Source: an uncultured virus (IMG/VR IMGVR_UViG_3300028586_000786)
Lineage: Duplodnaviria > Heunggongvirae > Uroviricota > Caudoviricetes
IMG/VR virus record: IMGVR_UViG_3300028586_000786
DNA: 64,000 nt
Strand: one strand, 5' to 3'
Shown: positions 30,756-63,911 of the stretch, piece after piece
How the letters are laid out: every line of letters starts with the position of its first letter
Numbering within the stretch: the first letter of the stretch is position 1
Made by a program: the position numbers and the translations under genes
Notes under the pieces: generated by a model
Told to the model about the DNA's origin: nothing
Database searches by the model: none
The model's input: the letters and a program-made list of their open reading frames with translations, nothing else

Positions 30756-31490
30756 TTACTTTTGCTGCCGTTTGAGCTTACGCTCGACTTTGGCTGCAAG
30801 TTCGGCGAACACGTCGTCGAAGTCACCGTCCTCAATCACGTCGCGGACATAGTTCTCGAGCTCGTCCCATACTGCCCGGCGAGCTTCACGGCTGACTTCG
30901 ACGCCGTCACGCGAAACCCGGAGGACTTCAGTCGTACGTGCGCGCCGGTTGTCATCCGAGCAGTCCGGCTCATCGCGGGAAACCTCGATGCGGTACTTGT
31001 AGGTCTCATCGTGCCAGGTGGCGCCGGCCGAGAAGTCGGTTGCACCATCATCATCGAAAACCGGCTCCGACAGGTTGACCACGGCATTGCTATCGCCCAG
31101 GTAGAAGTCAGCTGAGCCACGGTAGTTTCCTTCGTCCAGCTCAAAGCCGTGCGGATATTGCGCATGGCCGGCGGTGCGAAGCAGCTGCTGGGCTTCCTCG
31201 GCGCTGTGTGCCCGCACACGGATACGGGCCGATAGCGTCTGGTCAACCGTGACCAGGCTTTCGTACAGGTTGCCATCTTCTGGACCGACAATGGCGGCCA
31301 GAGCTGTTGCTTGGGCATTGCGGTGGGCCTGGGCTGCATCGAAACTTGCAGACAGGGTTGGCCAATCGCGCACGCCCATTACCTGGGCAACGACTTGCAG
31401 CGCAGCCTGGTGTCCGACGTTGAGGCCAAGGCCCTTCAGTGCGGCTTTGAGAATGCGAGCCTGCTCTTGTGGTTGCGGTACGTTTTTCAT
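30756..31490 (-). CDS. paralogue A: shared N-terminal helical domain (resembles Pfam Glyoxalase_8) plus acidic C-terminus
   Basis: QARILKAALKGLGLNVGHQAALQVVAQVMGVRDW; CAAGGA SD. Confidence 0.75.
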   Translation of the reverse strand: MKNVPQPQEQARILKAALKGLGLNVGHQAALQVVAQVMGVRDWPTLSASFDAAQAHRNAQATALAAIVGPEDGNLYESLVTVDQTLSARIRVRAHSAEEAQQLLRTAGHAQYPHGFELDEGNYRGSADFYLGDSNAVVNLSEPVFDDDGATDFSAGATWHDETYKYRIEVSRDEPDCSDDNRRARTTEVLRVSRDGVEVSREARRAVWDELENYVRDVIEDGDFDDVFAELAAKVERKLKRQQK

Positions 31491-31667
31491 ATTCAGATGT
31501 CCTTGTGAACGCTCGAAGGCGCCAAATTTGGTTGCTAGGGTCTCGTCGCTGCCTGCCACGCCTTCGAAGTCGAAAGGATGGGAGATTGTCCTTCTGGGTA
31601 ATACATGCGTGCACCGTGCCTGTTTCCAGGCGACGAGGGTGTTCGAGGTGCATAAGCCCCGTGCTAC
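31491..31667 (-). ncRNA. candidate structured leader RNA A
   Basis: GCCTG-GAAA-CAGGC-ACGG; CCCATC; 9-bp stem (31513-21/31559-67) enclosing 37 nt. Confidence 0.55.
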
Positions 31668-31730
31668 GTGTAGCAACGCCAGAATAGCGCAGCTCTACAC
31701 TACGCTCCTACAACTGTTTGAGGGATTCGA

Positions 31731-31988
31731 ATGTATCTCTGCAAAGTGCAAGTCAACGATACGACCTGGTACGGCGCTGCCTGTGCGTCGGATGCGGAGG
31801 CCGTGAGGGTGCTCGGGCAGTATCCCGACGTCTGCTACCTTGGAAAGCTCGGCCGGCGGCCGGAAATGGCTCCGCTCTGGGATGCGCCTGGCGTTCGGTT
31901 CATCCTCGACACGAGCGCGGATTCCCCACAATGGACTCAGGACCTGGCAGCGTTGCCTGAGCAGGGCGAACAGGTTGTGGGGTGCTAG
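31731..31988 (+). CDS. hypothetical protein
   Basis: GCTCTACAC 30 nt upstream; overlaps the start of the ARH gene. Confidence 0.55.
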   Translation: MYLCKVQVNDTTWYGAACASDAEAVRVLGQYPDVCYLGKLGRRPEMAPLWDAPGVRFILDTSADSPQWTQDLAALPEQGEQVVGC

Positions 31989-32857
31989 GGGCTATCGCCG
32001 GCGACATCATTGGTTCTCGCTGGGAGGGAGGCTCCTGCGATGACTTGCCGCTGCCGCTCATTACCCCGGAGTCGTGCTTCACCGACGACACGGTCTGCAC
32101 GATTGCCATCGCGGCATCGTTCTTGAACGATGTTCCGTTCGACGAGTCTCTGCGCGCATGGGTTCCGCGGTACCCGAACCGGGGCTACGGCGGAAGCTTC
32201 TACACCTGGGCTCACGCCCACGCCGCGCCGCCCTACAACAGCTTTGCCAACGGTGGCGCCATGCGCGTGAGCCCGGCCGCGTTGTTCGCGCAATCGGCGT
32301 CGGAGGCCATGGAGCTGGCAGCGCAGACTGCAGCGGTTACTCATAACCACGCGGAGGGATTGACGGGCGCCCGGGCTATCGCCGTCGCAATCTGGTATGC
32401 GCGAAACGGCGTGTCGCCTGCCGTTATCCGCAGCCGGGTTGAAGCGATGTTCGGGTACGACCTGCAAGCTTCGGTTTCGGACCGCGCGCTTACCTTCGGC
32501 TTTTCAACCCTGGCGCGGGAAACTGTCCCTGACGCGTTGGTCTCTGCCTTGGAAGCAACCTCCTTTGAGGGGGCGATTCGAAACGCAATCAGGATAGGCG
32601 GAGACTCGGACACCGTAGCCTGTATGGCCGGCGGTATTGCGGAGGCGCTGTTCGGCATTCCGGGCTATCTGGTCGACGATTTGCGGGGAGAGCTTCCGGC
32701 AGAGATGTGGGAAGTGCTCGAGGGGACGTACAAGAAAGCTGGATGCGCTTTCCCTTTGACAGGGGCATGCACTCCTGCGCACACCCCAGCGGAAAAGGGC
32801 GAACCGCCAGCATCGCTTACCGTCTTCGAAAGGCTGCGCAACTGGCTCTGGCTGTAG
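31982..32857 (+). CDS. ADP-ribosylglycohydrolase (ARH/DraG family)
   Basis: GAIAGDIIG, TDDT, NGGAMRVSP, THNH and GGDSDT motifs. Confidence 0.92.
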   Translation: MLGAIAGDIIGSRWEGGSCDDLPLPLITPESCFTDDTVCTIAIAASFLNDVPFDESLRAWVPRYPNRGYGGSFYTWAHAHAAPPYNSFANGGAMRVSPAALFAQSASEAMELAAQTAAVTHNHAEGLTGARAIAVAIWYARNGVSPAVIRSRVEAMFGYDLQASVSDRALTFGFSTLARETVPDALVSALEATSFEGAIRNAIRIGGDSDTVACMAGGIAEALFGIPGYLVDDLRGELPAEMWEVLEGTYKKAGCAFPLTGACTPAHTPAEKGEPPASLTVFERLRNWLWL

Positions 32858-32892
32858 GACGGCGGCGTTTAGGGTAGTGCGCAGTTTCGGGA

Positions 32893-33417
32893 CTACTTGG
32901 TGCCCGGAGCCGTGACATCCGCGTTCAGAACTCGCCCAACCAGCTCGCCGAACGTCCCTTCGAAGAGTTGAGCAAATTCCCTGCGCGCTATCATCGTCGA
33001 CTGGGCTTTGTGAGCATTCAGGGCAGCCTGCTTGTCGGCTCCTACGGGCGTATCTGCGTCAAACAAGAACCGCGACGTATCGCCATAGACGTCCAGGCCT
33101 GTATCGAGGCAGTCGTTCAGGACTTTGTTCTGCTGGTTCAGCAGATACTTTACGAATCCAGTGGACTCCGGAATGAGCTTTGGTCCACCAAACGCTTTCA
33201 TAGCCGCCTGCAGTCCCTGGGCAATGTGCAGCGGACGGAGTACCGCTACGTGAGACACCGGGTCCGTCCCCCGCTGGCGTAAATTCCACGATATTGCAGA
33301 GCACTCGCCCTTGCTTTGGGCAGCCCGAGCATCGACGGCCTTGCGCAGCGCGCGGTGGGCCGCCAACAGGGGGCCTCGCAAGGAGGCGTCGGAATTGAGG
33401 GCGTACAGGTCAGGCAT
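32893..33417 (-). CDS. hypothetical protein
   Basis: GGAG SD; GAACTACAC 25 nt upstream. Confidence 0.65.
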   Translation of the reverse strand: MPDLYALNSDASLRGPLLAAHRALRKAVDARAAQSKGECSAISWNLRQRGTDPVSHVAVLRPLHIAQGLQAAMKAFGGPKLIPESTGFVKYLLNQQNKVLNDCLDTGLDVYGDTSRFLFDADTPVGADKQAALNAHKAQSTMIARREFAQLFEGTFGELVGRVLNADVTAPGTK

Positions 33418-33461
33418 GCTGTTCTCCGCGGTTTGCAGCTTCGTGTAGTTCCGCGCATTTA

Positions 33462-33523
33462 GCCAAGCCGTAATCCGCAATCGGTCAGGCGGCTACCTGA
33501 CCGATTGCGGATTACGGCTTGGC
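33462..33523. repeat. perfect 28-bp inverted repeat with 6-nt loop
   Basis: GCCAAGCCGTAATCCGCAATCGGTCAGG-CGGCTA-CCTGACCGATTGCGGATTACGGCTTGGC. Confidence 0.9.
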
Positions 33524-33718
33524 GACGTGGCGCAGCATTTCCTTGCCTACTTTCCCGGCCGCGATTTCACGCAGAGCCATCACGGTAGGCTTGCCTTTGC
33601 CTTCAACCTTGGCGGTATGGCCTTTAATCAGCTGGCGCGCACGGTAGGTAGCGGCCAACGTCAGCTCGAACCGGTTAGGCATCTCTTTCAAGCAATCTTC
33701 AACAGTAATGCGGGCCAT
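33512..33718 (-). CDS. rpoZ: RNA polymerase omega subunit
   Basis: [10 protein letters not shown]...NRFEL.L.A..RARQL...[12 protein letters not shown]. Confidence 0.95.
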
Positions 33719-33941
33719 GAGGCCTCCATGGAAATGGGGTGGGGGAGCAGTTTAGCGTACTTGCTTGCGGGAGAAAAGTCGCGTCACTAAAAGTGTTGGC
33801 TAGGATATGAAGCGGTGTGTACGTGACGTATAGGGGCAAGGTTTAGCCACTCTGTGGGGGTTCTGCTCGGTACGGCACTGTCCAGAAAAACGCCCTGCAG
33901 GTCCGGAGACGGGCAGGGCGGTTGAATCGTGATGCGGTAGC

Positions 33942-34400
33942 TTATTCGCGCAGTGCCGAGTGCAACTCGACAGGGGACCAGTCGTTGAAGAAGTACTCTG
34001 CCTGGGACTCGGGGTCGTTCGCCTTCTGCACGGTGTAGACCGTACTCGCCGCGGCGCCCGTGGACAAATACGCGGTGAATGCGGGGTCGTCCAGGTAGTA
34101 GCAGGCGCATGCGGCCAGGTAGTTCCGTTCAGCGGACTGCAGCTCGCGAATATGCGGGGCCATGCCGAGAACTTGGCCAATGTCCCCGTTCTTCAGGCAG
34201 TCCTCGACGACACGGGCGCTTGGATGGGGTAGGTAGACCTTGTCCGCGTGGCGTACGGCGTCCAGGTTCGCTCGCATTGCGCCCATGAGGAACACCATGG
34301 GTGCGGGCAGGGCGACGTGGGCTGGAGCTGAAGTGTTACTGCCGCCGGCGGCGAAAGGATTCAGGCCTTTTGGAAGGTCGAGTTGTTGGTTTGCGTTCAT
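33942..34400 (-). CDS. hypothetical protein
   Basis: AAGGA SD; TCGCTACAC at 34439-34447. Confidence 0.7.
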   Translation of the reverse strand: MNANQQLDLPKGLNPFAAGGSNTSAPAHVALPAPMVFLMGAMRANLDAVRHADKVYLPHPSARVVEDCLKNGDIGQVLGMAPHIRELQSAERNYLAACACYYLDDPAFTAYLSTGAAASTVYTVQKANDPESQAEYFFNDWSPVELHSALRE

Positions 34401-34545
34401 GGCTTCCTTTCGATGAGGTGTTGAGATGTCCTAGTCTAGTGTAGCGATTTGACATTGACGTTGCCGTTGCCGTTGCCCGGGCATGGCCGGCAAAGAAAAA
34501 CCCCGCGCTTGGGAAAGCCACGGGGTTGGTCAATCAGGGTAGCGC

Positions 34546-35037
34546 TTAGTCGCGCAGGCTAAAGAGGTCTTGTTCAAGTCGCCACTTCGCGGTCATCCGC
34601 GCCACCAGGCTGGCAGCGCCGGCGAGAGCTATGCAGGCAACTGGCTGGAGGGGATAGAGCCTTGAGGCAGCCAGGCCGTTCACCGCTAGCGAGGCAACAG
34701 CGCCCAGACAAAGCGTCCAGGGAAGCATCGTATGGAGGCAAGCTCGGGCACCCCCATCGTAAAGGATGTGCGGCCCATGCATTGCCAGCGTAACGAGGCT
34801 GACCAGCGCCATCACCGTAACTGCCACCGCTGGGGAGGAGTGCAGGCTTGCCAACACGAACGCAATCCCCGACAGCAGAGCAGGCACTCGCATGAGCCGG
34901 CCTGCACGAACAAGGCTGATATGGTGGTAACGACATGCGACCATTTGGCGGAAAACTTCCCGCTCAGCCGCCCACGTAAGAACCAGGAAGGTGAAGGTGG
35001 CAAACAGCGCCAGGAGCGGGGCATAAGTGTCGAACAT
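34546..35037 (-). CDS. multi-TM membrane protein
   Basis: Hydrophobic segments; TCGCTATAC-N5-AGGCCAAC 29 nt upstream. Confidence 0.7.
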   Translation of the reverse strand: MFDTYAPLLALFATFTFLVLTWAAEREVFRQMVACRYHHISLVRAGRLMRVPALLSGIAFVLASLHSSPAVAVTVMALVSLVTLAMHGPHILYDGGARACLHTMLPWTLCLGAVASLAVNGLAASRLYPLQPVACIALAGAASLVARMTAKWRLEQDLFSLRD

Positions 35038-35148
35038 AGGGTCCTTGAGGGTAGTTGGCCTTCCAGGTATAGCGAACTGGCGCGGGCGCCGTCTAAAGGG
35101 CGGTCGCTAGACTTAGATTCCCCTCATACTCTAAAGGATGCTTCCAAG

Positions 35149-35454
35149 ATGCACAATGCTACCGTCGAAACCTTCGAACAAGAAGTCCTGAACTCCGACA
35201 TTCCCGTGCTGGTTGATTTCTGGGCCGAGTGGTGCGGACCCTGCCGCATGATGACCCCGGTGCTCGAGCAGTTCGCTGCAAAATATGATGGGCGTGTGCG
35301 CGTCGTGAAGGTCGATGCGGACACCCAGCGTAGCCTCGCGGTAACGTATGGCGTGCGGGGTTTGCCGACACTGATGGTCTTTGTCAAGGGCCAGGTGAAA
35401 GCGACCCGCACCGGTGCTACCAATCTCGCCGGCGTCGAAACCCTGATTGCGTAA
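35149..35454 (+). CDS. trxA: thioredoxin
   Basis: VLVDFWAEWCGPC active site; cis-Pro GLPT. Confidence 0.93.
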   Translation: MHNATVETFEQEVLNSDIPVLVDFWAEWCGPCRMMTPVLEQFAAKYDGRVRVVKVDADTQRSLAVTYGVRGLPTLMVFVKGQVKATRTGATNLAGVETLIA

Positions 35455-35520
35455 CCCGGAATCGAGTGCTGCCCAAAAGAAAACCCCGCTTGAGCGGGGT
35501 TTTTTGTGGCTATCGGCTGG

Positions 35521-36114
35521 TTACTTCCAGGGTCGCTTTGTCTCCGCCTCGTAGGCGGCGATGACCTCGCGCATGCCCTTGAGCTGCTTTGCTGACAGAT
35601 TGCGGTCGTTGTAATACTGCTTGCCTTCGTAGCGCACGGTGACGCTTTTTGCTTCTGCCATCGCGCGAACGGCTGCGATGTCGCTGGCGCCGGTCACCGG
35701 CACATCGGACCACTCCCAGATGCCCCCGCTGCCGTTATCGCGTTCCCAGCCCGAAAAGCCGCTTTCTTGTGGGAAGTCGATGCGGGTCTTGTCGGCCTTG
35801 GCGAACGCTTTGGTGATGAAGAGCCAGTCGTCGGACGCGTACTGCACCGCCAGGCGCAGCGGAGTAATGGTGCCGCTATCGAACTTGCCGAAATACAGGT
35901 ACATGCCGTTCGTATTCCGGTACTTTGGTGCCGACGTGCTTTGGTACCAGGCGACGCCACCCATCTTGTCGTACTTGCGGCTTAGGGCTTTGAGAGGGTC
36001 GGCCGCCGGCTTGGCTTTAGCCACCGCAGGGGACGCGACTGCGGCAGCGTGCGCCATCGGATTGGAAAGGAATGTGGCAAGGACGACAGACAGCATTGCG
36101 AACGTGGACTTCAT
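35521..36114 (-). CDS. secreted hypothetical protein
   Basis: Signal peptide (AHA); GGAG SD. Confidence 0.7.
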   Translation of the reverse strand: MKSTFAMLSVVLATFLSNPMAHAAAVASPAVAKAKPAADPLKALSRKYDKMGGVAWYQSTSAPKYRNTNGMYLYFGKFDSGTITPLRLAVQYASDDWLFITKAFAKADKTRIDFPQESGFSGWERDNGSGGIWEWSDVPVTGASDIAAVRAMAEAKSVTVRYEGKQYYNDRNLSAKQLKGMREVIAAYEAETKRPWK

Positions 36115-36306
36115 AGACTCTCCCTGGTTATTGACGACTGCCCGCTTTTTATCGCAGGGGCATACCAATAGATTACCAAATGTATATCATTCCTGTAAAG
36201 AAATTGTTGCTATCAGTGCTATTGCGCTACAGTGGACGGATGCTAAAAGAAAAGCCGCTCGAGAGCGGCTTTTGGTTGAATGAAAGGGTTGAGCTTGAAG
36301 GGGAGC

Positions 36307-37974
36307 TTACGCAGCTTCTCGCGGCTCTACCTTGCACCAGATGGTTGGAGCCTTCGGCTTGTTGCGTGCCTCGGCGATGTGCCCAGGAAGCGCGAACGAG
36401 TCAGTACGGGCCACGGCCCACCAACGTTCGAACACTGGGTAGCGGTAGACGCCGTTGAGCAGGTCTCCCGGTTCCACGGTATCGAGCACTTCCGACAAAG
36501 GTTGCACGTCGAACGCCGAAATACGACGCATGATGTGGTGCGGTGCTAGCTGTTCCGGATGCGTCAGGCCGGCGGCCTGCACAAGTTCAGCCAGAGCATG
36601 CATCGTGTTGCGATGGAAGTTGAACACGCGTTCTGCTTTATCGGGTACGACAAGAGCCTTCTGGCGGTCTTGGTCCTGGGTTGCCACCCCGGTAGGACAG
36701 CGGTCGGTATTACACTTCTGCGCTTGGATGCAGCCGACAGCGAACATGAAGCCGCGGGCGGAATTGACCCAATCTGCGCCAATTGCCATAATGCGTGCGA
36801 TGTCGAACGCAGTGATGAGCTTTCCCGACGCGCCCAGGCGAACCTTGTCGCGTAGGCCAAGGCCCTTGAGCATGTTATGCACCAGCAAAAGTCCTTCCTG
36901 CAGCGGGGTGCCGACATGGTCGACGAACTCCACTGGCGCCGCGCCGGTGCCGCCTTCTGCGCCATCGACCACTATGAAGTCAAACGTCCAGCCCAAATCG
37001 TACATGGCCTTGCCAATTCCGAACACTTCCCACGGATGGCCGACGCACAGCTTGATTCCGACAGGCTTGCCGCCTGACCGGTCGCTCAGAAGCATACCGA
37101 ACTTGACCAGGGACTCTGGCGAATCGAAAGCCGAATGCGACGAGGGAGAAATGCAGTCCTGGCCCATGGGAACGCCGCGGGTGGCGGCGATTTCCGGAGT
37201 GATTTTCGCAGCCGGCAGTACGCCGCCATGACCGGGCTTAGCTCCTTGCGAGAGCTTAATCTCAATCATCTTCACTTGTGGGTCCTGTGCCCGAACGGAA
37301 AACGCTTCAGGGTCGAAGGTTCCGTCCGGATTGCGGCAGCCGAAATAGCCTGAGCCGATTTCCCAGATGAGGTCGCCGCCGTGTTCGCGGTGATACTGTG
37401 AAATGGAGCCCTCGCCGGTGTCATGAGCGAATCCACCTTTCTTTGCTCCCAGGTTCAGGGCTCGGATAGCGTTTGCCGACAGAGCGCCGAAACTCATCGC
37501 CGACACGTTCATTACGGACAGCGAGTAGGGTTTGGCGCGGCCTGCGCCGACGACTACGCGAAAATCGCTGCTGGCCAGTTTGGTTGGTGCCATTGAGTGG
37601 CTGACCCATTCGTGGCCGGTAGCATCAACATCCCGCTCGGTGCCGAAAGCTCGGGAGTCAATGTCGTTCTTTGCGCGTTGGTAGACGACATTACGCTGCG
37701 CACGCGAAAAAGGAGTTTCTTCCGTTTCGCTCTCAACGAAGTACTGCCGGAACTCCGGTCGGATGAACTCGAATATGAAGCGGAAGTGGCCGAGCAGCGG
37801 GTAGTTGCGCAAAATGCTGTGACGGGTTTGCACCGCGTCGCGCACGCCTACGACACACAAGGCAACAGCCACGACTGACCAGAGCCAGCTAATGCTGCCG
37901 GCCGCTGCCAGAATGACGGTTGTGGAAAGGACAATAAGGGCGGCGTACAAGCCGACCCAGCGACGAACTAGCAT
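36307..37974 (-). CDS. FMN-binding glutamate synthase family protein (stand-alone, membrane-anchored)
   Basis: SAMSFGALS, TGEG, EIKLSQGAKPGHGG, DGAEGGTGAAP, GCIQAQKC...CPTGVATQD 3Fe-4S motif. Confidence 0.92.
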   Translation of the reverse strand: MLVRRWVGLYAALIVLSTTVILAAAGSISWLWSVVAVALCVVGVRDAVQTRHSILRNYPLLGHFRFIFEFIRPEFRQYFVESETEETPFSRAQRNVVYQRAKNDIDSRAFGTERDVDATGHEWVSHSMAPTKLASSDFRVVVGAGRAKPYSLSVMNVSAMSFGALSANAIRALNLGAKKGGFAHDTGEGSISQYHREHGGDLIWEIGSGYFGCRNPDGTFDPEAFSVRAQDPQVKMIEIKLSQGAKPGHGGVLPAAKITPEIAATRGVPMGQDCISPSSHSAFDSPESLVKFGMLLSDRSGGKPVGIKLCVGHPWEVFGIGKAMYDLGWTFDFIVVDGAEGGTGAAPVEFVDHVGTPLQEGLLLVHNMLKGLGLRDKVRLGASGKLITAFDIARIMAIGADWVNSARGFMFAVGCIQAQKCNTDRCPTGVATQDQDRQKALVVPDKAERVFNFHRNTMHALAELVQAAGLTHPEQLAPHHIMRRISAFDVQPLSEVLDTVEPGDLLNGVYRYPVFERWWAVARTDSFALPGHIAEARNKPKAPTIWCKVEPREAA

Positions 37975-39181: not shown

Positions 39182-39297
39182 ACGGTCCTTTAGGTAGGGG
39201 TTCTCTGGCGTATAGAAAGCGGAACCTATACGGGTTCGCGGTACCCATTGGAGCTTGGCCACACTTCCCGAGGCCAATCCACTTACAAGGACATTTC

Positions 39298-44015: not shown

Positions 44016-44122
44016 AGTTCGCAGCATCCCCTTTAGAGCCCGCGCAATGCGGGCTTTTTCTTTGGCATAAAAAAGCCGCACCCTGAACGGATGCGGCTTT
44101 TTGAATTGAAACGGGGGATTGT

Positions 44123-45280: not shown

Positions 45281-45430
45281 TCAATTTCCTCTATTTTGGT
45301 TAGTAACTCGTTTTCACGTAGTCAGGTGAACAGGTTGTGTCCTCTGAGGTATAGCAAGCGCATGTCCAAGAGCCTAGCTAGAGCGAGCTCGCATCAGTTC
45401 ATGCCGGGAGCAGCGTTGCCGGCGCTATAC

Positions 45431-45607
45431 TTAGCCAAGGCTGCAGCAGCCTCCCGCCTGCGTCGCGTCCGCGATACGGCAAACAGCTGAACTTTTAGGA
45501 CCATTTCATTCCATCCCTCCCTTTTTGGGACAAGGGCAATGGAGCAAGGCAGGCAGTTCCCCTGGCAGCAATGCCAAAAGCCCTTGTCAATCCAAGGACA
45601 GGACACC
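45431..45607 (+). ncRNA. candidate structured leader RNA B
   Basis: GTCGC-GTCC-GCGAT-ACGG; TCCATC; stem GACAAGGGC (45529-37)/GCCCTTGTC (45580-88) enclosing 42 nt. Confidence 0.55.
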
Positions 45608-46291
45608 ATGAAAAACAGCAGTATTGAACTCAAATCGCAAGACGAACAGACCGCCAAAGCAGTAGCCGGCACCATCGGCCGCTTCCTGACGGACAAGGGC
45701 ATCACGCTGCCCCGCACCCAAGTTCTCGACCTGGTGGGAGTTCTCACTGGGCACGCGGACTGGCGCAGTCTGAATGCACATCTCGAGGCCGAGGCAGTCA
45801 AGCGCCGCGGAACGCCTCAGCAGATTTCGCGCGAGGACTTCATCAAGCGATTCAAGCCGATGAAGAACCCGTTCGACAAGCATGCAGAGTTCGACGGCTT
45901 TGGCTTCGGCCTCCGCAGCCAAGAAGGTGAGTATGTTGAACGTGTCCGTGCTTCGGACCCGTCCCGCATCTGGACGGTTGTTGACGGTGATACGTCGCAG
46001 TGGCTCACTTCAGGCTACCACTACGTCAATCGCCAGTTCTACGTCATTGCCCACGTTCCGCTGAAAGACGGCGAGGATTTCGAGGTGCCCTATGGCCACG
46101 ACCTGGGCGACAAGCTCTACAAGGTCTCGGTCTACGATGACCCAGGCGCCGAAGTCTACTCTGATGAGGTCTACGCTACTGACGCGCGCGATGCACGTGA
46201 GCAGCTCCAAGGCGACATCGAGGCCGAAACCGAAGAGATGCGCGAGGCAGGTGAAGTCTTCTACGTGTATGTCGAAGAGGTCAAGTCATAA
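45608..46291 (+). CDS. paralogue B: shared N-terminal helical domain plus distinct C-terminus
   Basis: AKAVAGTIGRFLTDKGITLPRTQVLDLVGVLTGHADWRSL. Confidence 0.75.
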   Translation: MKNSSIELKSQDEQTAKAVAGTIGRFLTDKGITLPRTQVLDLVGVLTGHADWRSLNAHLEAEAVKRRGTPQQISREDFIKRFKPMKNPFDKHAEFDGFGFGLRSQEGEYVERVRASDPSRIWTVVDGDTSQWLTSGYHYVNRQFYVIAHVPLKDGEDFEVPYGHDLGDKLYKVSVYDDPGAEVYSDEVYATDARDAREQLQGDIEAETEEMREAGEVFYVYVEEVKS

Positions 46292-50338: not shown

Positions 50339-51121
50339 TCAGTCCATGAGGGCGCGCAACAGTCGTGCGTGCTCTTCAAACGGCATTGCAGTCCACTGCG
50401 CGGGTGTCAACTCGCGAGCAGCCATGACCTGCGTACAGGCATCGCGCCATGCGTGGCCGACTGCGTCGTCCTCGGAGGCGAACCAGGTTTCCGATTCGTC
50501 CGAGGGCGCAAGCCAGCGCCAGGTGTCGCCGGCTCGTTCAGGGTCCTGTTCGAACTCGTAGCCGAGGCTGTCGAGCACGTCTCGCCACTGCGACAGCTTG
50601 GGAGCAGGGTGCTGCTTGTTCATCTCGATGAAGCGCTGCAGCCAGCTCCAGCGCTCTGCCAAACTGCAGCCATCGAAGTCCTCGCAGCCCTGCTGATGTG
50701 CCCAGTCACTGACGTCGTCAATGTCCAGGTTCAGCTGCTCGCAGAGAGCTTCCTCTGCGTCAGACTGCAGGGCCCAGGTCGATGCGATGCTTTCGTGGTC
50801 GGCGCCGTCAGCGTACACGTCCACTGAGATGCCTTCATCGGTCAGGTTCGGATGAACCTTGTAGGGGCCGATGGCAATCCAGCAGTCCTGGCCAGGCTGC
50901 ACCGTAACGTGCGACTCAGATGGCGAGCCTGACGTATCCGGAGCGGTTGCTTGCTTGTCCAGGGCGGCCCGGCAGGCGTGTGCGTTCCGGAAGCCTTGCG
51001 AGGCCGCGAGGAGCTCCTCCATCAGGTCGACAACTACGTCGTTGCCGGACTTGGTGGTGAGGCCCAGGGCCTGGGCGCGGGTCAGCATACGCGCCGCAGC
51101 GCTACGAAATTCCTTGTTCAT
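50339..51121 (-). CDS. paralogue C: divergent shared N-terminal domain plus acidic C-terminus
   Basis: FRSAAARMLTRAQALG...MEELLAASQGFRNAHACRAAL; CAAGGA SD. Confidence 0.65.
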   Translation of the reverse strand: MNKEFRSAAARMLTRAQALGLTTKSGNDVVVDLMEELLAASQGFRNAHACRAALDKQATAPDTSGSPSESHVTVQPGQDCWIAIGPYKVHPNLTDEGISVDVYADGADHESIASTWALQSDAEEALCEQLNLDIDDVSDWAHQQGCEDFDGCSLAERWSWLQRFIEMNKQHPAPKLSQWRDVLDSLGYEFEQDPERAGDTWRWLAPSDESETWFASEDDAVGHAWRDACTQVMAARELTPAQWTAMPFEEHARLLRALMD

Positions 51122-51294
51122 ATCGGTTTCCTTGAGAAGTGGCGGAGCCACACATAGTTGGGGTTCGCATTGCAACAAAAGGCTCCACCGAATCGGTGGG
51201 AAACAAATTGTGGATGACGGCAAATGCCGTATTGCCTCCGTACCCGTGAGGGCGCGAACCAGAGACGTGCAGAGCTTAACGCATGCTGCTTGAT
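51122..51294 (-). ncRNA. candidate structured leader RNA C
   Basis: GCCC-TCAC-GGGT-ACGG; CCCACC; stem 51141-49/51181-89 enclosing 31 nt. Confidence 0.5.
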
Positions 51295-51361
51295 GTGTAG
51301 GTACTAACTAAATTTAAAAGTACGGACTACACCTAATCCTTCGACTCATCCAGAATCACCA

Positions 51362-57468: not shown

Positions 57469-57618
57469 CGACCGTATAGCAGGTGGGGTTTATGCTCACG
57501 AGGCATGTTTGCTGGCGCGCAACACATTTCAGGCATCCTCTAGCTTTAGCGTGATTGCGCTTGGGCAATTAAAGGAATTCAGTTACGCTGTTCTTTACCT
57601 TGATTGAAGAGAGCGTTC

Positions 57619-58340: not shown

Positions 58341-59333
58341 TTAGCTTCCGGTCCACCAGCGGTACCCTGCAGGGATGCATGTTTTTCCAGACTGAGCGAA
58401 GAACGCAGTGATGGTAGTTGCCGAGTCAAAAGTACGGAACCCGACAACAGGCCGAACGGCTCCAGCGGAGGCCCATTTCACCGTTGTGACGACGGTGCAG
58501 GAGGTGACGTCATAAATCGTCATTGTGCGGGCGCCGATGTCGGCTGCGAAGCCATATCGTGCTGTCGAGGAGCTTTGAAGAGTTGCCCGCCCGGAAGGCG
58601 TAACGCCCGCGCTTCCGCTTCCGAAGACATTGCGGTCCCGGTACATCAGGTCCACGTAGTAGCCTCCGCCGCCAGGTAGATAGGTGCTCAGGGCCCCTTT
58701 TCCTGTCGACTGCATTTCCCAGTACCATGTTCCGCTGGTCTTGCTGTTAGCAAAGGGAACGTCCGCAGTCTTGCCGCCAGGCGTTGAAACCGTCGTTGCG
58801 TTATTGCTGTACGTCACCGAGGGAATCCCCAACTGGAACGTTCCTGGCGTGGTGGCCGTGGCACCTGCAAAGGTAGCGGTCAGAGGGGAGGCCCCTCCGC
58901 CCAGCGCGATTGACAAGCTAGCGTTCGAAGAAGACTCCGCCTGGTTGTTACGGTACGAAACGGTGAACGTGCAGCTCGCATTGGGCAGCAAGTTAGCGGC
59001 GCATGACTCGTTGGCGGTAGTGAAGGGGGTGCTTATTGAGCCGAACGAGAGGGTGGCCGGTGACGTTCCCGTGTTCGATAGCGTGAAAGCCTTCGTCACC
59101 GACTGGCCCGCAGCGACCGTACCAAAATCCCACACATTTGGAGACAAGCTTACTTGTGGGGGCACCGGGGCCGGAGCGGGCGCAGGCTTTTCCGGCGCGA
59201 CAGGAGCGGGGCCGCTGGCGCTTGCCGCTTTAATGCCTTGTGCATGCACGCGCATCTCGTACGGGGTGCTGGCCTGAGCCGTCATTACTGAGGTCAGCAG
59301 TAGGGCTGACAGAATCGTATTGCATTTTTTCAT
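58341..59333 (-). CDS. secreted protein with one choice-of-anchor-D Ig repeat and a SPRY-like domain
   Basis: Signal peptide; WDFG.V......F.L.NTG; KTSGTWYWE...YGFA.D. Confidence 0.75.
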   Translation of the reverse strand: MKKCNTILSALLLTSVMTAQASTPYEMRVHAQGIKAASASGPAPVAPEKPAPAPAPVPPQVSLSPNVWDFGTVAAGQSVTKAFTLSNTGTSPATLSFGSISTPFTTANESCAANLLPNASCTFTVSYRNNQAESSSNASLSIALGGGASPLTATFAGATATTPGTFQLGIPSVTYSNNATTVSTPGGKTADVPFANSKTSGTWYWEMQSTGKGALSTYLPGGGGYYVDLMYRDRNVFGSGSAGVTPSGRATLQSSSTARYGFAADIGARTMTIYDVTSCTVVTTVKWASAGAVRPVVGFRTFDSATTITAFFAQSGKTCIPAGYRWWTGS

Positions 59334-59441
59334 TAAATTGTCCGGCGAAGGTGAATCGGTATCTGGGTATAGCGACATACGCGGAGGCGTCGGTCACGAG
59401 AAGTGCGCACCCACCGACGCCAAAGACGCCGGACTATACGC

Positions 59442-60338
59442 CTATGCCCCGTAGCGAGTCATTTCTTCCACGAAGGCTGCGGCGCAGCGCGAAGTCACCT
59501 CGACGTTGTACCCGCCCTCCAGGCACGCGACCACTCGATGGTTTACGCTCAGGATTTGCTGCGCCACCCAGGCGTAATCTTCATCGCCCAAGCCAATAGT
59601 GCCTAGCGGGTCTTCTCGATGGGCGTCGAAACCGGCTGACACCAGGATAAGCTCCGGCTCGAAGTTCTTCACTTCAGCGAGCATGGTGGTCCAGGCCGCT
59701 CGAAACTCCCTTGCGGAACTGCAGCGGGCCCGCAGGATGTTGTCTGGGCAGAACTCGCCAAGGGCCAGATAGGGGTAGCCCATCTGGTACGTTTCCGCGA
59801 ACAGCACATGGCCATTGCCCATGAAGGACAGGACGGTGCCGTCCCCCGAATGGGTGTCGATGTCCAGCACTGCAATACGGCTCACTCCCCGTGACAACGC
59901 ATGGCGTGCTGCGATGGCGACCTGATTGGTGAAACAGAAGCCGCCGGCCGACTCACTGTGAGCGTGGTGCCCTGCATAAGTCACGCAAAACGCGTTCGAC
60001 GCTTCCTCGTCCAACACCGAGTCGACCGCCTGGCAGGCGGCGCCGGCAGAGAGACCAATCATCCGCCAGGTGTGCCGGTTCAGGACCGTCTCGTTGTCGA
60101 TATAGTGGTGCTTTCCCTCTTCGCGAGGCGTGTAAGCGTGCAGCTGGCCGACGAACGCACTGGTGTGGTTCCGCTCGAGCTCTTCCTTGGTTGCAAGTCT
60201 GGCGTCGCAAAGGCGAATACCGGGCACCGTTGCCACACGCGCGTAGATGCGCTCGAGACGGTCCGAGGCCATAGCTTTGTGGTTGGCGGCCGCGTCATGC
60301 AGGAAAATGTCGGGGTGCGAATAGACGTGAGTGGTCAT
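59442..60338 (-). CDS. histone deacetylase family (zinc-dependent) deacylase
   Basis: GHHA, GFC..N, DIDTHSGDGT, SAGFDAH..DPLG, LEGGY. Confidence 0.92.
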   Translation of the reverse strand: MTTHVYSHPDIFLHDAAANHKAMASDRLERIYARVATVPGIRLCDARLATKEELERNHTSAFVGQLHAYTPREEGKHHYIDNETVLNRHTWRMIGLSAGAACQAVDSVLDEEASNAFCVTYAGHHAHSESAGGFCFTNQVAIAARHALSRGVSRIAVLDIDTHSGDGTVLSFMGNGHVLFAETYQMGYPYLALGEFCPDNILRARCSSAREFRAAWTTMLAEVKNFEPELILVSAGFDAHREDPLGTIGLGDEDYAWVAQQILSVNHRVVACLEGGYNVEVTSRCAAAFVEEMTRYGA

Positions 60339-60986: not shown

Positions 60987-62498
60987 TTACTGCGGGTCTT
61001 GACCTGACGTACCAAGTGCCCAGATAGTGACTCGGCCGGTAGCCGGATGCACCTTGACGGATTGGCCCGGGCTGAGCTTGGAGCAGGCTCCGTCCATGCG
61101 CATGATTGGCTTGTCCTGCTCGCGGCAGACCGTCACCAGGTGAGCGAGACGTCCGCCCGCTTCGCAAACAACTGCACCGGCCGCCATCGCCTGGAGTTCG
61201 AACTCAACACCTGCATGGGGCACCACGAGGATGCTGTTGCGGTCGATATTCTCGCTGTCGGCAAATACGACGGTTCCCGAAACTTCCGGGCCGCGCGCCA
61301 GCACCTGCACTTCGAAGTTGAGCAATGTGCGCTGTACTTCGAACATCATGTCCAGGATAGCCCGATACTCACGGCTGTCATGGCGATAGGTCTTGGCGTC
61401 GATGGCGAAGCCGCAACCGAGCCAGACGTCCGTATGGAACGGGTTGTCCTCAGCCGTCTTGAAGCTGTCCGGGCTGATTGCCTCGTATTGCGGCATCAGG
61501 GCATGGGCCGACGTCTGCGAGAGCGCGTAGCAGTACAACGCCCGCTTTGGTGCCCGCAGGGACAAGTACGTACCATCCTTCGGGTCGCGCCAGCGATAGT
61601 CCTGCCAGCCGTACTCGCTGTCGCCATCGGCAAACGCAGTGATGCGTTCACGCAGCGCCAGAGCTTCTGCTTGTTGGCGGGCGGCGAAGGCTTCCGATGC
61701 TGCATGTTCAGCAGCGAGCTTTGCTTCCAAGTCCTGCTGTTCTTCCGCAGAAAGGGAGGCTGTGGCCGCGACCGGCTCAGGCTTTGCTGCTTCGTCCGGA
61801 TGGATGAAGCCATAGCGCTGGGCATAGCCGCTGGTAGGCAGGTAGCTGCGCGCCGACTCATACGCCTTCTTGAAGCAGGTGTTGTCGTTTTCGCGCCAGA
61901 AGGGTGCTACCCCTTCGGCGACCTGGCGGAACAGAACGATTACGTCATTCTGCCGGGTGCGGCTCATCAAAATGGCTCGGTCGGTGCGCGGATTGTCGGC
62001 GTAGTGCATGGCACGCAGCTCCAGGGAGCGAGCTGGCAGAACAGTCGCGTATGCCGACTTCGCGTACACCGATTCCAATTCCGACGTCCATCGTTCACGC
62101 CTGACGAAGCAAGGCATTGCACTGTCCCGGTACTCCGGCAGTGCCAGTGCATGGTGGAAGTCGGCCTTGCCCAGTGTGTCAAGCACCAAGTAAGGCTCGT
62201 ACATCACTTTGCCGTCCCGGACGAACTGGCCCAGGCAATATTCGGCGGTGTATCGCTCCTGCAGCTGCTGCATGACGTCAGGGTCTTCCGCCACCATCAG
62301 GATGGTGTCGTTTTCGCCTGTCAGCTTGAAGCGGCCTTCGATGATGCCAATGGCTTGGTCGTAGCTCATGCCGACCAGGTTGTCGACCAGGTGGGCGAGG
62401 GCGCCTTTCCAGTCGCCATCACCCATGCGCTCGCGCGCTTGTTCGGTCAGGCTGGCACCGCGGATGGTAAAGGAAATCATGTGGCTTGTAACGGTCAT
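60987..62498 (-). CDS. unknown domain fused to PEP-utilising mobile domain, paralogue 2
   Basis: GAVVCEAGGRLAHLVTVCRE; full-length similarity to 39982-41460; TCGCTACAC-N5-AGGACAAC upstream. Confidence 0.8.
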   Translation of the reverse strand: MTVTSHMISFTIRGASLTEQARERMGDGDWKGALAHLVDNLVGMSYDQAIGIIEGRFKLTGENDTILMVAEDPDVMQQLQERYTAEYCLGQFVRDGKVMYEPYLVLDTLGKADFHHALALPEYRDSAMPCFVRRERWTSELESVYAKSAYATVLPARSLELRAMHYADNPRTDRAILMSRTRQNDVIVLFRQVAEGVAPFWRENDNTCFKKAYESARSYLPTSGYAQRYGFIHPDEAAKPEPVAATASLSAEEQQDLEAKLAAEHAASEAFAARQQAEALALRERITAFADGDSEYGWQDYRWRDPKDGTYLSLRAPKRALYCYALSQTSAHALMPQYEAISPDSFKTAEDNPFHTDVWLGCGFAIDAKTYRHDSREYRAILDMMFEVQRTLLNFEVQVLARGPEVSGTVVFADSENIDRNSILVVPHAGVEFELQAMAAGAVVCEAGGRLAHLVTVCREQDKPIMRMDGACSKLSPGQSVKVHPATGRVTIWALGTSGQDPQ

Positions 62499-62564
62499 GG
62501 GGGTGTCCTTGGAAAAAGTAGTTGTCCTCGTAGGTGTAGCGATTGCTCCGGCGAGTTGCTAGAC

Positions 62565-62768
62565 TAAGCCTAGGCCATAGAGACAGCCCACCGGTCGGGC
62601 CTTCGGGTACGGTAAATCCTCTGTGTATTTCCCCTGGTTTCGAATCTACCCATCTCAAAATGCTGGGACGTTTCAACCTAAGCCAATCCGACCACCTTTT
62701 AGACCCTCTGTCAGTTGAACCGTCCTGGCGAATGGAGAGCATTCGACATGACCAAGGAAACTATCACC
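62565..62768 (+). ncRNA. candidate structured leader RNA D
   Basis: GCC-TTCG-GGT-ACGG; CCCATC; about 15-bp stem (62662-77/62714-29) enclosing 36 nt. Confidence 0.55.
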
Positions 62769-63911
62769 ATGAACCAAAACGAAATCGAACTGAAGGCTAT
62801 CGCCAAGGCAGTCGGCGGCTCGCTCAAGCGAGCTGGCCACAGCGTTCCGCACAGCACCGTTTTGCATGCCGTGTCGGCCGCGCTCAACAAGCGTGACTGG
62901 CACAAGCTGAAGGCATCGCTCGAGGGGAAATCTGCAGCCCCGGCCACAAACCAGGATGCGAAGGCGCCCTCGACCGATATCTTCGGCATCGCGCGACAGC
63001 GCTACTCGGAGCGCACGCTCTTCGCACTTGCGCTGGCGCTCGCTTGCGGCTCCCCGGTTTCACCGGTGCCGGAGACGGACGAATTGGCCCTTGCTGCAGC
63101 GCGGGCGAACTTCCCTGCGGGGATTGACGGTGTGCTGTCCTGGAAGGGCTGGAATACGCCCGTGACGATGAACCCTCTTACGAGCGACATCGACGCAGGG
63201 GACTTCACACCTGAAACCGAGGCTGTTGGGCTCATGACGCTGAACCTGCCCGGCATCGAGCAACCGCTCAAGCTGGAAGTGGCGTTCAGCAAGAAGGAGA
63301 AAATCTGGTATCTCACGCAAGAGGGAGCGACTCAGGCGTATGCTCAGCTGCAAGTAGCTGTGCCGCTCACTGAGCTGTTCCCCCCGGTGATGCCGGGTGA
63401 GACCATCCGCGCCGAATTCTGGACGGACGACCGGGTTGTGGAGTGCGAGTTCGATGCACGGCCTTTCTTCATGCAGGCAACTGCGCATGAGATTGGTGGC
63501 ATTATCGGCTGCGGCTATCGGGGAGACTATCCTACCGATGCCATTGCTCAGTACGTCTCCGACAAGCACCTGGACGCGACGCTCGAGAGTGGTTTCGACT
63601 ACATCGGGCTGATGCAAAAAGCCGGTCGCGAGGATGCGCCAGGCTTCGAGTGCAGCGTGGACCAGGAAAGCATGCTCAACTGGCTCGACAAGTACCGCCA
63701 TGAGGAGCTTGCCATCGCCTTGTGCGAGAAGGTCGGCTACTTCCATGAGGAAGAGGAAGAGTTCATGGGTGGCGTCGAAGGCTACGCTTTCGTCCTGACC
63801 GGTGAAGAGTACCAACCAGGTGCGCCGCTGTATGGCTCTACCGGAGATGCTGCCATGGTGGCCTACCGGGAACTGAACCTGCTCGAGAAAGCGTTGAGCA
63901 ACGAGCTGTAA
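62769..63911 (+). CDS. paralogue D: shared N-terminal helical domain plus long distinct C-terminus
   Basis: LKAIAKAVGGSLKRAGHSVPHSTVLHAVSAALNKRDWHKL; CAAGGA SD. Confidence 0.8.
   Translation: MNQNEIELKAIAKAVGGSLKRAGHSVPHSTVLHAVSAALNKRDWHKLKASLEGKSAAPATNQDAKAPSTDIFGIARQRYSERTLFALALALACGSPVSPVPETDELALAAARANFPAGIDGVLSWKGWNTPVTMNPLTSDIDAGDFTPETEAVGLMTLNLPGIEQPLKLEVAFSKKEKIWYLTQEGATQAYAQLQVAVPLTELFPPVMPGETIRAEFWTDDRVVECEFDARPFFMQATAHEIGGIIGCGYRGDYPTDAIAQYVSDKHLDATLESGFDYIGLMQKAGREDAPGFECSVDQESMLNWLDKYRHEELAIALCEKVGYFHEEEEEFMGGVEGYAFVLTGEEYQPGAPLYGSTGDAAMVAYRELNLLEKALSNEL

What the first reader, a model, noticed from the sequence alone, without database searches (positions are those of the whole stretch)
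30756..63911. Four paralogues with a shared N-terminal domain, each behind a conserved structured 173-204 nt leader with a variable loop: candidate new ncRNA-protein system
Seen: genes A (31490, -), B (45608, +), C (51121, -) and D (62769, +) share only a ~45-aa N-terminus (A..L...L...G......L..+A...G..DW..L; C is the most divergent) and have unrelated C-termini. Most genes here have the CTANAC motif about 25-40 nt from the ATG, but these four have it 177, 177, 173 and 204 nt away. The intervening DNA has the same order in all four. (i) A tetraloop hairpin followed by ACGG: A GCCTG-GAAA-CAGGC-ACGG, B GTCGC-GTCC-GCGAT-ACGG, C GCCC-TCAC-GGGT-ACGG, D GCC-TTCG-GGT-ACGG, with the CGG able to pair upstream. 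(ii) A YCCAYC box; A and D also share TGTATTWCCC and AATCT(A)CCCATC. (iii) A 9-15 bp stem of different sequence but conserved pairing, enclosing a 31-42 nt loop. (iv) A CAAGGA SD. Conserved pairing with changed sequence is the signature of a functional RNA. Recalled knowledge, unverified: the N-terminal domain resembles Pfam Glyoxalase_8, a poorly characterised small domain. Inference: the domain binds its cognate RNA, either as an autoregulatory leader or as an RNP in which the variable loop gives specificity to a swappable effector. Loops share mosaic words: GGCAGGCAG in A and B, GCAATGC in B and C, AGACCCT in A and D.
Basis: partly seen in the sequence, partly recalled or inferred. Interest (0 to 1): 0.92.

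Follow-up and report, generated by a model that had tools for sequence, protein, structure and literature searches.

The report
Knotted RNA leader tied to protein domain
Four genes in this stretch each sit behind a long, folded and doubly knotted RNA leader that belongs to a widespread but uncatalogued family, which in many bacteria always precedes genes starting with the same small three-helix domain and probably gates their translation.

Summary
Genes A, B, C and D each lie 177, 177, 173 and 204 nt behind a CTAYAC promoter-like box, and the four leaders share one architecture. It holds an apical hairpin whose loop pairs with the six bases just 5' of the tetraloop hairpin. That hexamer differs in all four copies but stays complementary. 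A second pseudoknot joins the first hairpin's loop to the bases after the ACGG box, and the base of the long stem covers the Shine-Dalgarno sequence.

The same RNA lies upstream of PF20066 N-domain genes in Alphaproteobacteria, whatever C-terminal domain follows (VOC/glyoxalase, Lon-N, Clp_N, ClpX zinc finger, DUF3471). On 61 sequences, 87% of cells pair, against 69% when shuffled. A model built without window sequences finds B, D and C as its top three window hits. In 151 genomes, 15 of 15 strong hits precede an N-domain gene. Rfam 15 has no match and I found no paper.

It most likely controls translation in cis. The trigger is unknown; autogenous binding by the N-domain is my best guess (about 40%). 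The guide-RNA RNP idea is not supported.

The parts
30756..31490 (-). Gene A (244 aa): N-terminal three-helix domain plus a C-terminal part of unknown fold
   Evidence: PF20066 N-part, 33 bits; 25 orthologues with the same start; AF2 pLDDT 80.7, no Foldseek match at E<=0.001
31491..31673 (-). Leader A with the CTACAC box (31668-31673). P1 31644-31661; P2 GAAA-tetraloop hairpin 31618-31631; ACGG box 31609-31617; anti-SD 31574-31578; long stem P3 31512-31569; SD 31500-31504
   Evidence: Six-sequence orthologue alignment: 91.9% paired, 11 pairs changed on both sides
31632..31637 (-). Leader A, pseudoknot PK2 5' strand (CUCGUC)
   Evidence: 100% paired, with 3 of 6 pairs covarying among orthologues
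31540..31551 (-). Leader A, apical loop of P3. PK2 3' strand GACGAG at 31542-31547
45608..46291 (+). Gene B (227 aa): N-domain plus unknown C-terminus
   Evidence: E 2.5e-6 with an independent profile
45425..45607 (+). Leader B with the CTATAC box (45425-45430). P1 45439-45451; P2 45462-45475; ACGG box 45476-45484; P3 45529-45588 with an extra small hairpin 45563-45576; SD 45594-45598
   Evidence: Model R1, built without window sequences, scores 31.5 bits, E 2.3e-8
45456..45461 (+). Leader B, PK2 5' strand (GCCUGC)
45545..45556 (+). Leader B, apical loop. PK2 3' strand GCAGGC at 45549-45554
50339..51121 (-). Gene C (260 aa): the N-terminus aligns to the domain only weakly
   Evidence: no Pfam hit; E 1.2; hhalign P 0.0055 in the right register
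51122..51300 (-). Leader C with the CTACAC box (51295-51300). P1 51269-51289; P2 51242-51253; ACGG box 51233-51241; anti-SD 51199-51203; P3 51141-51189; SD 51127-51133
   Evidence: R1 E 0.1, third-best window hit. With filters off it ranks sixth, E 0.086
51254..51260 (-). Leader C, PK2 5' strand (GGUUCGC)
51161..51172 (-). Leader C, apical loop with the family consensus. PK2 3' strand GCGAACC at 51162-51168
62769..63911 (+). Gene D (380 aa): N-domain plus unknown C-terminus. An in-frame ATG at 62748 is an alternative start
   Evidence: 20.5 bits; E 4.1e-5. The CAAGGA spacing shared with A-C favours 62769. R2 ended its alignment at 62750
62559..62768 (+). Leader D with the CTAGAC box (62559-62564). 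P1 62573-62588; P2 UUCG hairpin 62599-62608; ACGG box 62609-62617; anti-SD 62627-62632; P3 62662-62729; SD 62754-62760
   Evidence: R1 E 0.006 for the 5' half
62593..62598 (+). Leader D, PK2 5' strand (GGUCGG)
62683..62695 (+). Leader D, apical loop. PK2 3' strand CCGACC at 62688-62693

Best explanation
Each of the four genes is its own transcription unit. Its mRNA begins, a few bases after a CTAYAC promoter-like box, with a leader of about 175-205 nt.

Order of elements in the leader:
- hairpin P1;
- a 6-7 nt strand (PK2 5');
- a short tetraloop hairpin P2;
- a conserved A-Y-G-G-N-R-A-A box, whose GG pairs with the CC just before PK2;
- a strand that pairs with the P1 loop (PK1);
- a linker;
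- a long hairpin P3, whose base pairs a CCUUU-like strand with the Shine-Dalgarno sequence and whose 11-13 nt apical loop supplies the PK2 3' strand.

This double-pseudoknot leader belongs to a widespread, uncatalogued family. The family precedes genes whose products begin with the small three-helix N-terminal module of Pfam PF20066, whatever follows that module.

Shown: the fold, its covariation, its link to the domain, and the fact that the SD lies inside P3.

Inferred: the folded state blocks ribosome loading, so the leader sets or switches translation in cis (about 65%).

Further inferred, and the least secure step (about 40%): the effector is the N-terminal domain itself. It would bind the leader of its own message as an autogenous operator. 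That would explain why RNA and domain travel together as a cassette in front of unrelated C-terminal domains, and why the domain sits at the extreme N-terminus.
For: Architecture and covariation:
- My parser finds PK2 + P2 + box + apical hairpin in 53 of 59 unique leaders, two of them in a doubtful register. All four window copies parse, each with a different complementary hexamer.
- Structure-blind MAFFT alignment of 36 non-window leaders: 84.7% of cells paired against 72.0% shuffled (0 of 500 shuffles reach it), and 31-45% when partners are slid. PK1 89.8% paired with 6 of 6 pairs covarying. PK2 99.1% with 4 of 6.
- 61 sequences aligned to a model that held no pseudoknots: 87.2% against 68.8%. 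PK1 85.6%, PK2 99.2%, CC/GG junction 98.4%, anti-SD:SD helix 84.0% with 7 of 7 pairs changed on both sides.
- A-type leaders (6 sequences): 91.9% paired, PK2 100%.
- G-U outnumbers A-C 124 to 49 in paired cells, so the sense strand folds as RNA.

Link to the domain:
- Model R1, built without window sequences, ranks B, D and C first in the window.
- Its strong hits in the fetched loci end at the ATG of N-domain genes.
- In 151 alphaproteobacterial genomes, 15 of 15 hits with E<=3.4e-10 lie upstream of an N-domain gene, 14 directly and 1 with a 125-nt gap. The 6 weak, short hits do not.
- C-terminal partners differ: Glyoxalase_8, Glyoxalase_7, LON_substr_bdg, Clp_N, zf-C4_ClpX, DUF3471, or none.
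- In the best 150 of 3,739 representative clusters, the domain starts at residue 1-7 in about 130.

SD occlusion: the SD is paired in the MFE folds of A, C and D.

Not coding: 46 of 59 leaders have an in-frame stop within 150 nt of the ATG.
Against: - Nothing tests RNA-protein binding.
- The domain model (pLDDT 87.5) has no Foldseek match better than E 1.3 and no PDB sequence match better than E 0.3. By eye it is not strongly basic.
- In locus L048 the leader precedes a MatE transporter gene and the PF20066 gene comes second. That fits trans autoregulation or a small-molecule sensor better than strict cis, co-translational control.
- No two-state switch is shown. The one alternative helix I could propose (box with P3 3' arm) is 68% paired, but no better than shuffles (463 of 500 reach it).
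- Single-sequence folding energies are unremarkable (z -1.00, -1.93, -1.45, -0.47), and B's MFE fold does not pair the SD.
- The covariance models do not detect leader A, and they leave C at noise level. Membership of A and C therefore rests on the hand-parsed architecture and, for A, on orthologue covariation.
- PK1 in B, C and D is only 4 bp and untested.
Confidence: 0.45

Rival explanations
1. Orphan riboswitch. The double pseudoknot is an aptamer for a small molecule or ion. Ligand binding stabilises or opens P3 and so controls the SD. The N-domain proteins would all act on, or respond to, that ligand.
For: There are invariant unpaired nucleotides at junctions: the GG and AA of the box and the AA of the apical loop (invariant columns). 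The fold is compact and pseudoknotted with SD sequestration. The leader heads a MatE efflux gene in L048, and a MatE gene follows the PF20066 gene in L033. VOC/glyoxalase partners suggest detoxification.
Against: The link is to a 55-aa N-terminal module and not to a coherent set of enzymes or transporters. The partners include Lon-N, Clp_N and ClpX zinc-finger domains, and phage-like ORFan domains. Only 2 MatE cases were seen among the 34 loci whose neighbours were scanned (60 of the 95 neighbouring ORFs went to Pfam). No alternative helix has covariation support.
Confidence: 0.25
2. Effector-free element. The fold acts as an RNA thermometer, or as a fixed module that sets translation rate or mRNA stability, with no specific binding partner.
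For: The SD lies in the basal helix of a long hairpin. Partners related to proteostasis (Lon-N, Clp_N, ClpX-ZBD) would suit heat or stress induction. A clpA/clpB-like gene converges on the PF20066 gene in 3 loci: L040, L047, L049.
Against: Two covarying pseudoknots and invariant junction bases are more than a melting hairpin needs. This reading does not explain the strict link to one protein domain. No ROSE or other thermometer family of Rfam matched.
Confidence: 0.17
3. The leader is processed into a stable RNA that the N-domain binds, and a variable loop guides a swappable effector to nucleic-acid targets.
For: RNA and domain co-occur whatever the C-terminus. The four window copies carry different hexamers.
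Against: The variable hexamer pairs within the leader and covaries with its partner (99.2% paired; 100% among A orthologues). The remaining loop sequence is not conserved among orthologues. No PADLOC defence family matched at E <= 0.001; the only row is a type IV Cas11 model for A at E 0.0052.
Confidence: 0.04
4. No function. The four leaders resemble each other only because the genes are paralogues that were duplicated together with their upstream DNA.
For: Single-sequence folding z-scores are ordinary.
Against: There are compensatory changes in every helix across distant taxa. A model from Alphaproteobacteria finds the window copies. The primary sequence of the pairing strands differs in all four copies.
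Confidence: 0.02

Closest known systems
Autogenous translational operators with pseudoknots: the E. coli rpsO (S15) mRNA leader and the phage T4 gene 32 leader (recalled, not computed)
   Same: A 5' leader with a pseudoknot next to or covering the ribosome-binding site. The RNA is always linked to the gene of one protein. Control is presumed to act at 30S loading.
   Different: Those operators belong to one protein with a known RNA or ssDNA target. Here the constant is a 55-aa N-terminal module fused to many unrelated domains, the fold is a double pseudoknot of about 150 nt, and binding is untested.
Pseudoknotted translational riboswitches such as ZTP (pfl motif), SAM-II and preQ1-II (resemblance recalled; no Rfam family matched)
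   Same: A compact pseudoknotted fold, invariant junction nucleotides, and an SD inside or next to a helix of the fold.
   Different: There is no ligand candidate. The gene association is with a protein domain and not with a pathway. No covarying alternative helix was found.
ROSE and fourU RNA thermometers (recalled)
   Same: The SD is sequestered in a hairpin of the 5' UTR. They occur in Alphaproteobacteria and regulate stress-related genes.
   Different: Thermometers are simple hairpins with few conserved bases. This RNA has two covarying pseudoknots, and Rfam's ROSE models did not match.
Pfam PF20066 Glyoxalase_8
   Same: Positions of about 5-60 of the profile are the three-helix module that A, D and (weakly) B carry.
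   Different: The window proteins lack the VOC/glyoxalase part (profile positions of about 70-143). The module is a separate, mobile N-terminal domain.
Cluster #630,527 of the bioRxiv preprint 10.64898/2026.10.21.760802 (one passage seen)
   Same: A motif immediately upstream of genes annotated as glyoxalase, proposed there as a shared 5' leader.
   Different: That cluster also precedes flavin monooxygenase and NmrA-like genes, which I did not see here. Its sequence and supplements could not be read, so identity cannot be judged.

Membership tests
   All four window leaders: A CUCGUC/GACGAG, B GCCUGC/GCAGGC, C GGUUCGC/GCGAACC, D GGUCGG/CCGACC. In the family, 99.2% of cells pair.
   Present in A, B and D. 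In C it is met only if PK2 is read as 7 bp. The junction is 98.4% paired in the family and 100% among A orthologues.
   Family: 85.6-89.8% paired, with 6 of 6 pairs covarying. A-type: 90%. In B, C and D only 4-bp candidates were seen by eye, and there are no orthologues to test them.
   R1: B E 2.3e-8, D 0.006 (5' half), C 0.1, A not found. With filters off, three hits inside ORFs outrank C.
   A, B and D are significant with an independent profile; C is not (E 1.2). In the family, 15 of 15 strong hits in 151 genomes meet this.
   Seen in the MFE folds of A, C and D. It is absent from the MFE fold of B, although CCCUU/AAGG can pair. Family helix: 84.0% paired.
Pfam PF20066 Glyoxalase_8 (whole family) | A match over the gathering score across the 143-position profile, including the VOC part | tested here: not met
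   Only profile positions about 8-60 match. A is over the cut-off; D and B are under it; C has none.
Any Rfam 15 family (4227 models, including riboswitches, ROSE and ribosomal leaders) | A cmscan match at the gathering score, or at E<=1, on the leader | tested here: not met
   Window: 0 matches. 13 loci: 7 matches, none on a leader. 15 loci: 0.
Riboswitch | Direct binding of a metabolite or ion that changes the fold | not testable with these tools
   No ligand candidate. The alternative helix has no covariation.
Autogenous translational operator | The encoded protein binds its own leader and represses translation | not testable with these tools
   Only co-occurrence is shown. The domain fold has no informative match.
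   The variable hexamer is paired within the leader and covaries with its partner.

The most novel reading that the evidence does not exclude
Leader and N-domain form a portable, self-limiting expression cassette. The three-helix domain is the first part of the protein to leave the ribosome. It binds the double-pseudoknot leader of its own message, possibly in cis during translation, and locks the SD into P3. Any C-terminal domain recombined behind the cassette would then inherit homeostatic, copy-specific control. Such domains include protease substrate-binding decoys, VOC proteins and ORFan effectors of phage-like elements. That would explain why one element can hold four cassettes whose knot sequences all differ.
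Probability: 0.25. Interest if true: 0.85.

Novelty: new variant of a known kind. Interest (0 to 1): 0.72.

Why it matters
If the reading holds, this is a large RNA family missing from the catalogues. The partner domain has 3,739 representative clusters at 50% identity. It occurs on chromosomes, on megaplasmids of cultured Agrobacterium and Rhizobium strains, and in phage-like elements.

Its association is with a protein module and not with a pathway, which is unusual for leaders. It points to a reusable RNA-protein control cassette, or to an orphan sensor whose signal is shared by stand-alone Lon-N, Clp_N and ClpX zinc-finger proteins and by VOC proteins, all of them uncharacterised.

The element is directly testable. 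Named, cultivable strains carry it, and the two pseudoknots offer clean compensatory-mutation experiments.

For this window in particular, it explains four odd long 5' leaders and corrects the picture of a 'variable loop'.

Tried and rejected
- Identity of the replicon. Megablast of 30000-52000 against plasmids and phages found nothing. No whole genome is held. tblastn of A against phages found nothing. The A family is absent from viral contigs and from the GTDB representative genomes. PHROGs hit 8 of 57 proteins, all but one of unknown function. Two proteins have distant relatives in phages, among them jumbo Caulobacter phages. Whether this is a phage, a plasmid or a chromosome stays open.
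- Fold of A and of the N-domain. No Foldseek hit at E<=0.001 and no PDB sequence hit better than E 0.3. NCBIfam gave nothing for A-D. PADLOC gave only a weak Cas11 row for A (E 0.0052).
- Switching helix (box with the P3 3' arm): no covariation.
- uORF idea. The AUG inside the box is not conserved (it reads ACG, AAG, CUG or UUG in many rows).
- ssDNA-promoter idea. Rejected because the copies lie on both strands and G-U exceeds A-C on the sense strand.
- RNA evidence. Contigs of three metatranscriptome runs lie, without mismatch, inside B's coding part (45654-46163). No contig covers any leader, and contigs cannot show a 5' end, so this says nothing about the leader.
- Literature. No paper holds 'Glyoxalase_8' or 'PF20066', nor two of the four Pfam names of the partner domains. 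A search for double pseudoknot, leader and Alphaproteobacteria gave nothing relevant in its 10 listed titles. The search for glyoxalase with 'riboswitch candidate' gave one preprint, of which I read one passage; its supplements are closed.
- tblastn of a full-length Glyoxalase_8 protein against phages: no match.

Full report
THE WINDOW. The window has 55-61% G+C in 2-kb windows. It is rich in ORFans: 12 of 66 long ORFs have a Pfam family at E<=0.001, and 8 of 57 have a PHROG, nearly all of unknown function. Its own contig is 454 kb, and relatives of gene A lie on contigs of up to 1.46 Mb. Nothing similar was found by megablast in plasmids or phages. The A family is absent from IMG/VR and from the GTDB species representatives. 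Two proteins have distant relatives in phages, some of them jumbo Caulobacter phages. I cannot say whether the replicon is a giant phage, a plasmid or a chromosome.

THE OBSERVATION. The four genes, their starts and the distances to the CTAYAC box are exactly as written: 177, 177, 173 and 204 nt. So are the tetraloop hairpins, the ACGG box, the long stems and the CAAGGA Shine-Dalgarno sequence.
- Domain by Pfam. Pfam places the N-termini of A (33.0 bits, cut-off 23.7), D (20.5) and B (12.4) on positions about 8-60 of the 143-position Glyoxalase_8 profile. C gets nothing.
- Domain by an independent profile. A profile of the domain made without window sequences or A orthologues finds A (5.9e-13), B (2.5e-6) and D (4.1e-5) among 941 ORFs, but not C (E 1.2). 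hhalign puts C in the right register only weakly. No fifth ORF carries the domain.
- Start of A. It is fixed by 25 orthologues of 45-66% identity. Four of 5 orthologous leaders have in-frame stops, so the open frame upstream of A is chance.
- Promoter-like box. It is real as a positional signal but overstated. Of 87 crude ORFs, 35 have the box within 250 nt, and in 23 of these it lies 20-60 nt from a plausible start. Its overall count is not above chance.
- Transcription units. In the A and C intergenic regions, a second box on the other strand serves the divergent neighbour. Each of the four genes therefore looks like its own transcription unit, with the RNA fold starting 5-14 nt after the box.

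WHAT THE LEADER IS. Loci fetched with the A family and with distant N-domain proteins showed the same order of elements upstream of genes from GC-rich Alphaproteobacteria.
- PK2. The bases immediately 5' of the tetraloop hairpin are complementary to part of the 'loop' of the long stem, and they change together. The pairs seen were CUCGC/GCGAG, CUUGC/GCAAG, GUCCGC/GCGGAC, CCUGC/GCAGG, CUCAC/GUGAG, GGUUGC/GCAACC and CCCGC/GCGGG.
- The 'loop'. It contains an inner hairpin with an 11-13 nt apical loop. Positions 5-10 of that loop are the 3' strand of this pseudoknot.
- PK1. The loop of the first hairpin pairs with the bases that follow the A-Y-G-G-N-R-A-A box.
- Junction. The GG of the box pairs with the CC in front of PK2.
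- P3 base. A CCUUU-like strand pairs there with the SD.

COUNTS.
- My parser finds PK2 + P2 + box + apical hairpin in 53 of 59 unique leaders, two of them in a doubtful register. The six misses are L005, L006, L032, L039, L043 and L048.
- On a MAFFT alignment of 36 non-window leaders, 84.7% of cells pair against 72.0% in shuffles (0 of 500) and 31-45% when partners are slid. PK1 is 89.8% paired with all six pairs covarying. PK2 is 99.1% paired with four of six covarying.
- On 61 sequences aligned to model R1, which held neither pseudoknot nor the junction, 87.2% of cells pair against 68.8%. PK1 is 85.6% paired, PK2 99.2%, the junction 98.4% and the anti-SD:SD helix 84.0%.
- G-U pairs outnumber A-C 124 to 49, so the sense strand folds as RNA.
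- Rfam 15 has no match in the window or in 28 loci.

THE WINDOW COPIES AS MEMBERS. All four have the PK2 complement, each with a different hexamer: A CUCGUC/GACGAG, B GCCUGC/GCAGGC, C GGUUCGC/GCGAACC, D GGUCGG/CCGACC.
- R1, built without any window sequence, ranks B (E 2.3e-8), D (0.006, 5' half) and C (0.1) as its three best window hits. It misses A.
- With filters off and a broader model, C stays at noise level behind three hits inside ORFs, and A is still missed.
- A's membership rests on its architecture and on six orthologous leaders: 91.9% paired, 11 pairs changed on both sides, PK2 100% paired with three pairs covarying.
- Single-sequence folding energies are ordinary (z -0.47 to -1.93). 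The MFE folds of A, C and D nevertheless pair the SD with the anti-SD strand.

THE LINK TO THE DOMAIN.
- PF20066 occurs in 42 of 401 sampled Pseudomonadota genomes.
- The proteins behind the leader carry, after the N-domain, Glyoxalase_8, Glyoxalase_7, LON_substr_bdg, Clp_N, zf-C4_ClpX, DUF3471 or nothing recognisable. The Atlas lists the same fusions, plus stand-alone 50-58-aa forms in viruses.
- R1's strong hits in the loci end at the ATG of such genes. It also found extra copies, one of them ahead of another N-domain ORF in L003.
- In 151 alphaproteobacterial genomes, 15 of 15 hits with E<=3.4e-10 precede an N-domain gene. The six weak, short hits do not.
- There is one exception in kind. 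In L048 the leader precedes a MatE transporter gene and the PF20066 gene follows it. In L033 a MatE gene follows the PF20066 gene.
- The domain has 3,739 representative clusters at E<=0.001. In about 130 of the best 150 it sits at residues 1-7.
- Its model is a confident three-helix unit (pLDDT 87.5) with no informative structural or sequence match.

MECHANISM. Shown: a conserved double-pseudoknot 5' leader with the SD inside its basal helix, tied to one N-terminal protein module. Inferred: it controls translation in cis.
- Autogenous binding by the domain (about 40%). This best explains why RNA and module travel together in front of unrelated domains, and why the module is always N-terminal. 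It is untested.
- An orphan riboswitch (about 25%). It is favoured by the invariant junction bases and the MatE cases.
- An effector-free thermometer or rate-setting fold (about 17%).
- The guide-RNA RNP is not supported, because the variable hexamer is paired internally.

OTHER OBSERVATIONS. Contigs of three metatranscriptome runs match B's coding part exactly, but DNA can be present in such libraries. Cultured Agrobacterium and Rhizobium strains carry the element on plasmids, so it can be tested. Four earlier notes of this scan describe the same leader class in other genomes. They are unchecked AI notes, and I verified the fold and the linkage independently here.

Noticed in passing
window, e.g. 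3592, 9250, 25365, 31695, 48957, 51965, 52462, 53657, 55967 (+) and the matching sites on the - strand: A CTAYAC box, often preceded by CG or TG, lies 25-52 nt before the start of 23 of 87 crude ORFs. Divergent gene pairs share back-to-back boxes (GTRTAG...CTAYAC). It looks like the -10-like element of this replicon's promoters.
   Followed up: partly
window 17513-22642 (-) and 58344-59378 (-): A 1710-aa protein with many HYDIN/ASH/DUF1573 Ig-like repeats, and a 345-aa relative. The large one also matches phrog_18474 at 1.5e-64.
   Followed up: no
window 6742-8631 (-), 26893-27330 (-), 31982-32854 (+), 57604-57957 (+), 59445-60338 (-): Cellular-type genes stand among the ORFans: an FtsH-like protease, a PTH2 peptidyl-tRNA hydrolase, an ADP-ribosylglycohydrolase, an H-NS C-terminal domain protein and a histone-deacetylase-family protein.
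   Followed up: no
L048:1-1932 and L033:1344-3389: The leader heads a MatE efflux gene followed by the PF20066 gene (L048). In L033 the order is leader, PF20066 gene, MatE. These are the only cases seen where the leader serves a gene without the N-domain.
   Followed up: partly
L040, L047, L049: A clpA/clpB-like AAA+ gene converges on the full-length Glyoxalase_8 gene in three loci. Together with the Lon-N, Clp_N and ClpX zinc-finger fusions, this hints at a link to AAA+ proteolysis.
   Followed up: no
P0030 (462 aa) and P0031-P0035, P0037, P0039: Some representatives hold two to four matched stretches of the N-domain profile in one protein. P0030 has four, the best-scoring at residues 180-239.
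   Followed up: no
L013:1-118 (-) and 207-362 (+); L003:4564-4731 (-): Two leader copies face away from each other in one locus (L013). An A-orthologue contig holds a second leader in front of another N-domain ORF that seems to start with GTG.
   Followed up: partly
L033:1501-1938 (protein residues 8-61): The N-domain weakly matches the N-terminus of NCBIfam NF004629 (PRK05973, 'DNA helicase', profile 7-55 of 237; E 0.00096). The module may also be fused to a helicase-like family.
   Followed up: no
window 31350-51340: A DNA run labelled gut metagenome (X3) holds a relative across the whole 20 kb; 63 of its 64 laid contigs are 90-99% alike. Within leader A it differs at 31593, 31600 and 31631 (linker, and the first pair of P2).
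   Followed up: partly
window 5261-5348 (-), 12889-12966 (-), 22243-22431 (+), 43308-43425 (+): Weak covariance-model hits (E 0.012-0.79) lie inside long ORFs. I take them as noise, but they set the noise level at which leader C scores.
   Followed up: no
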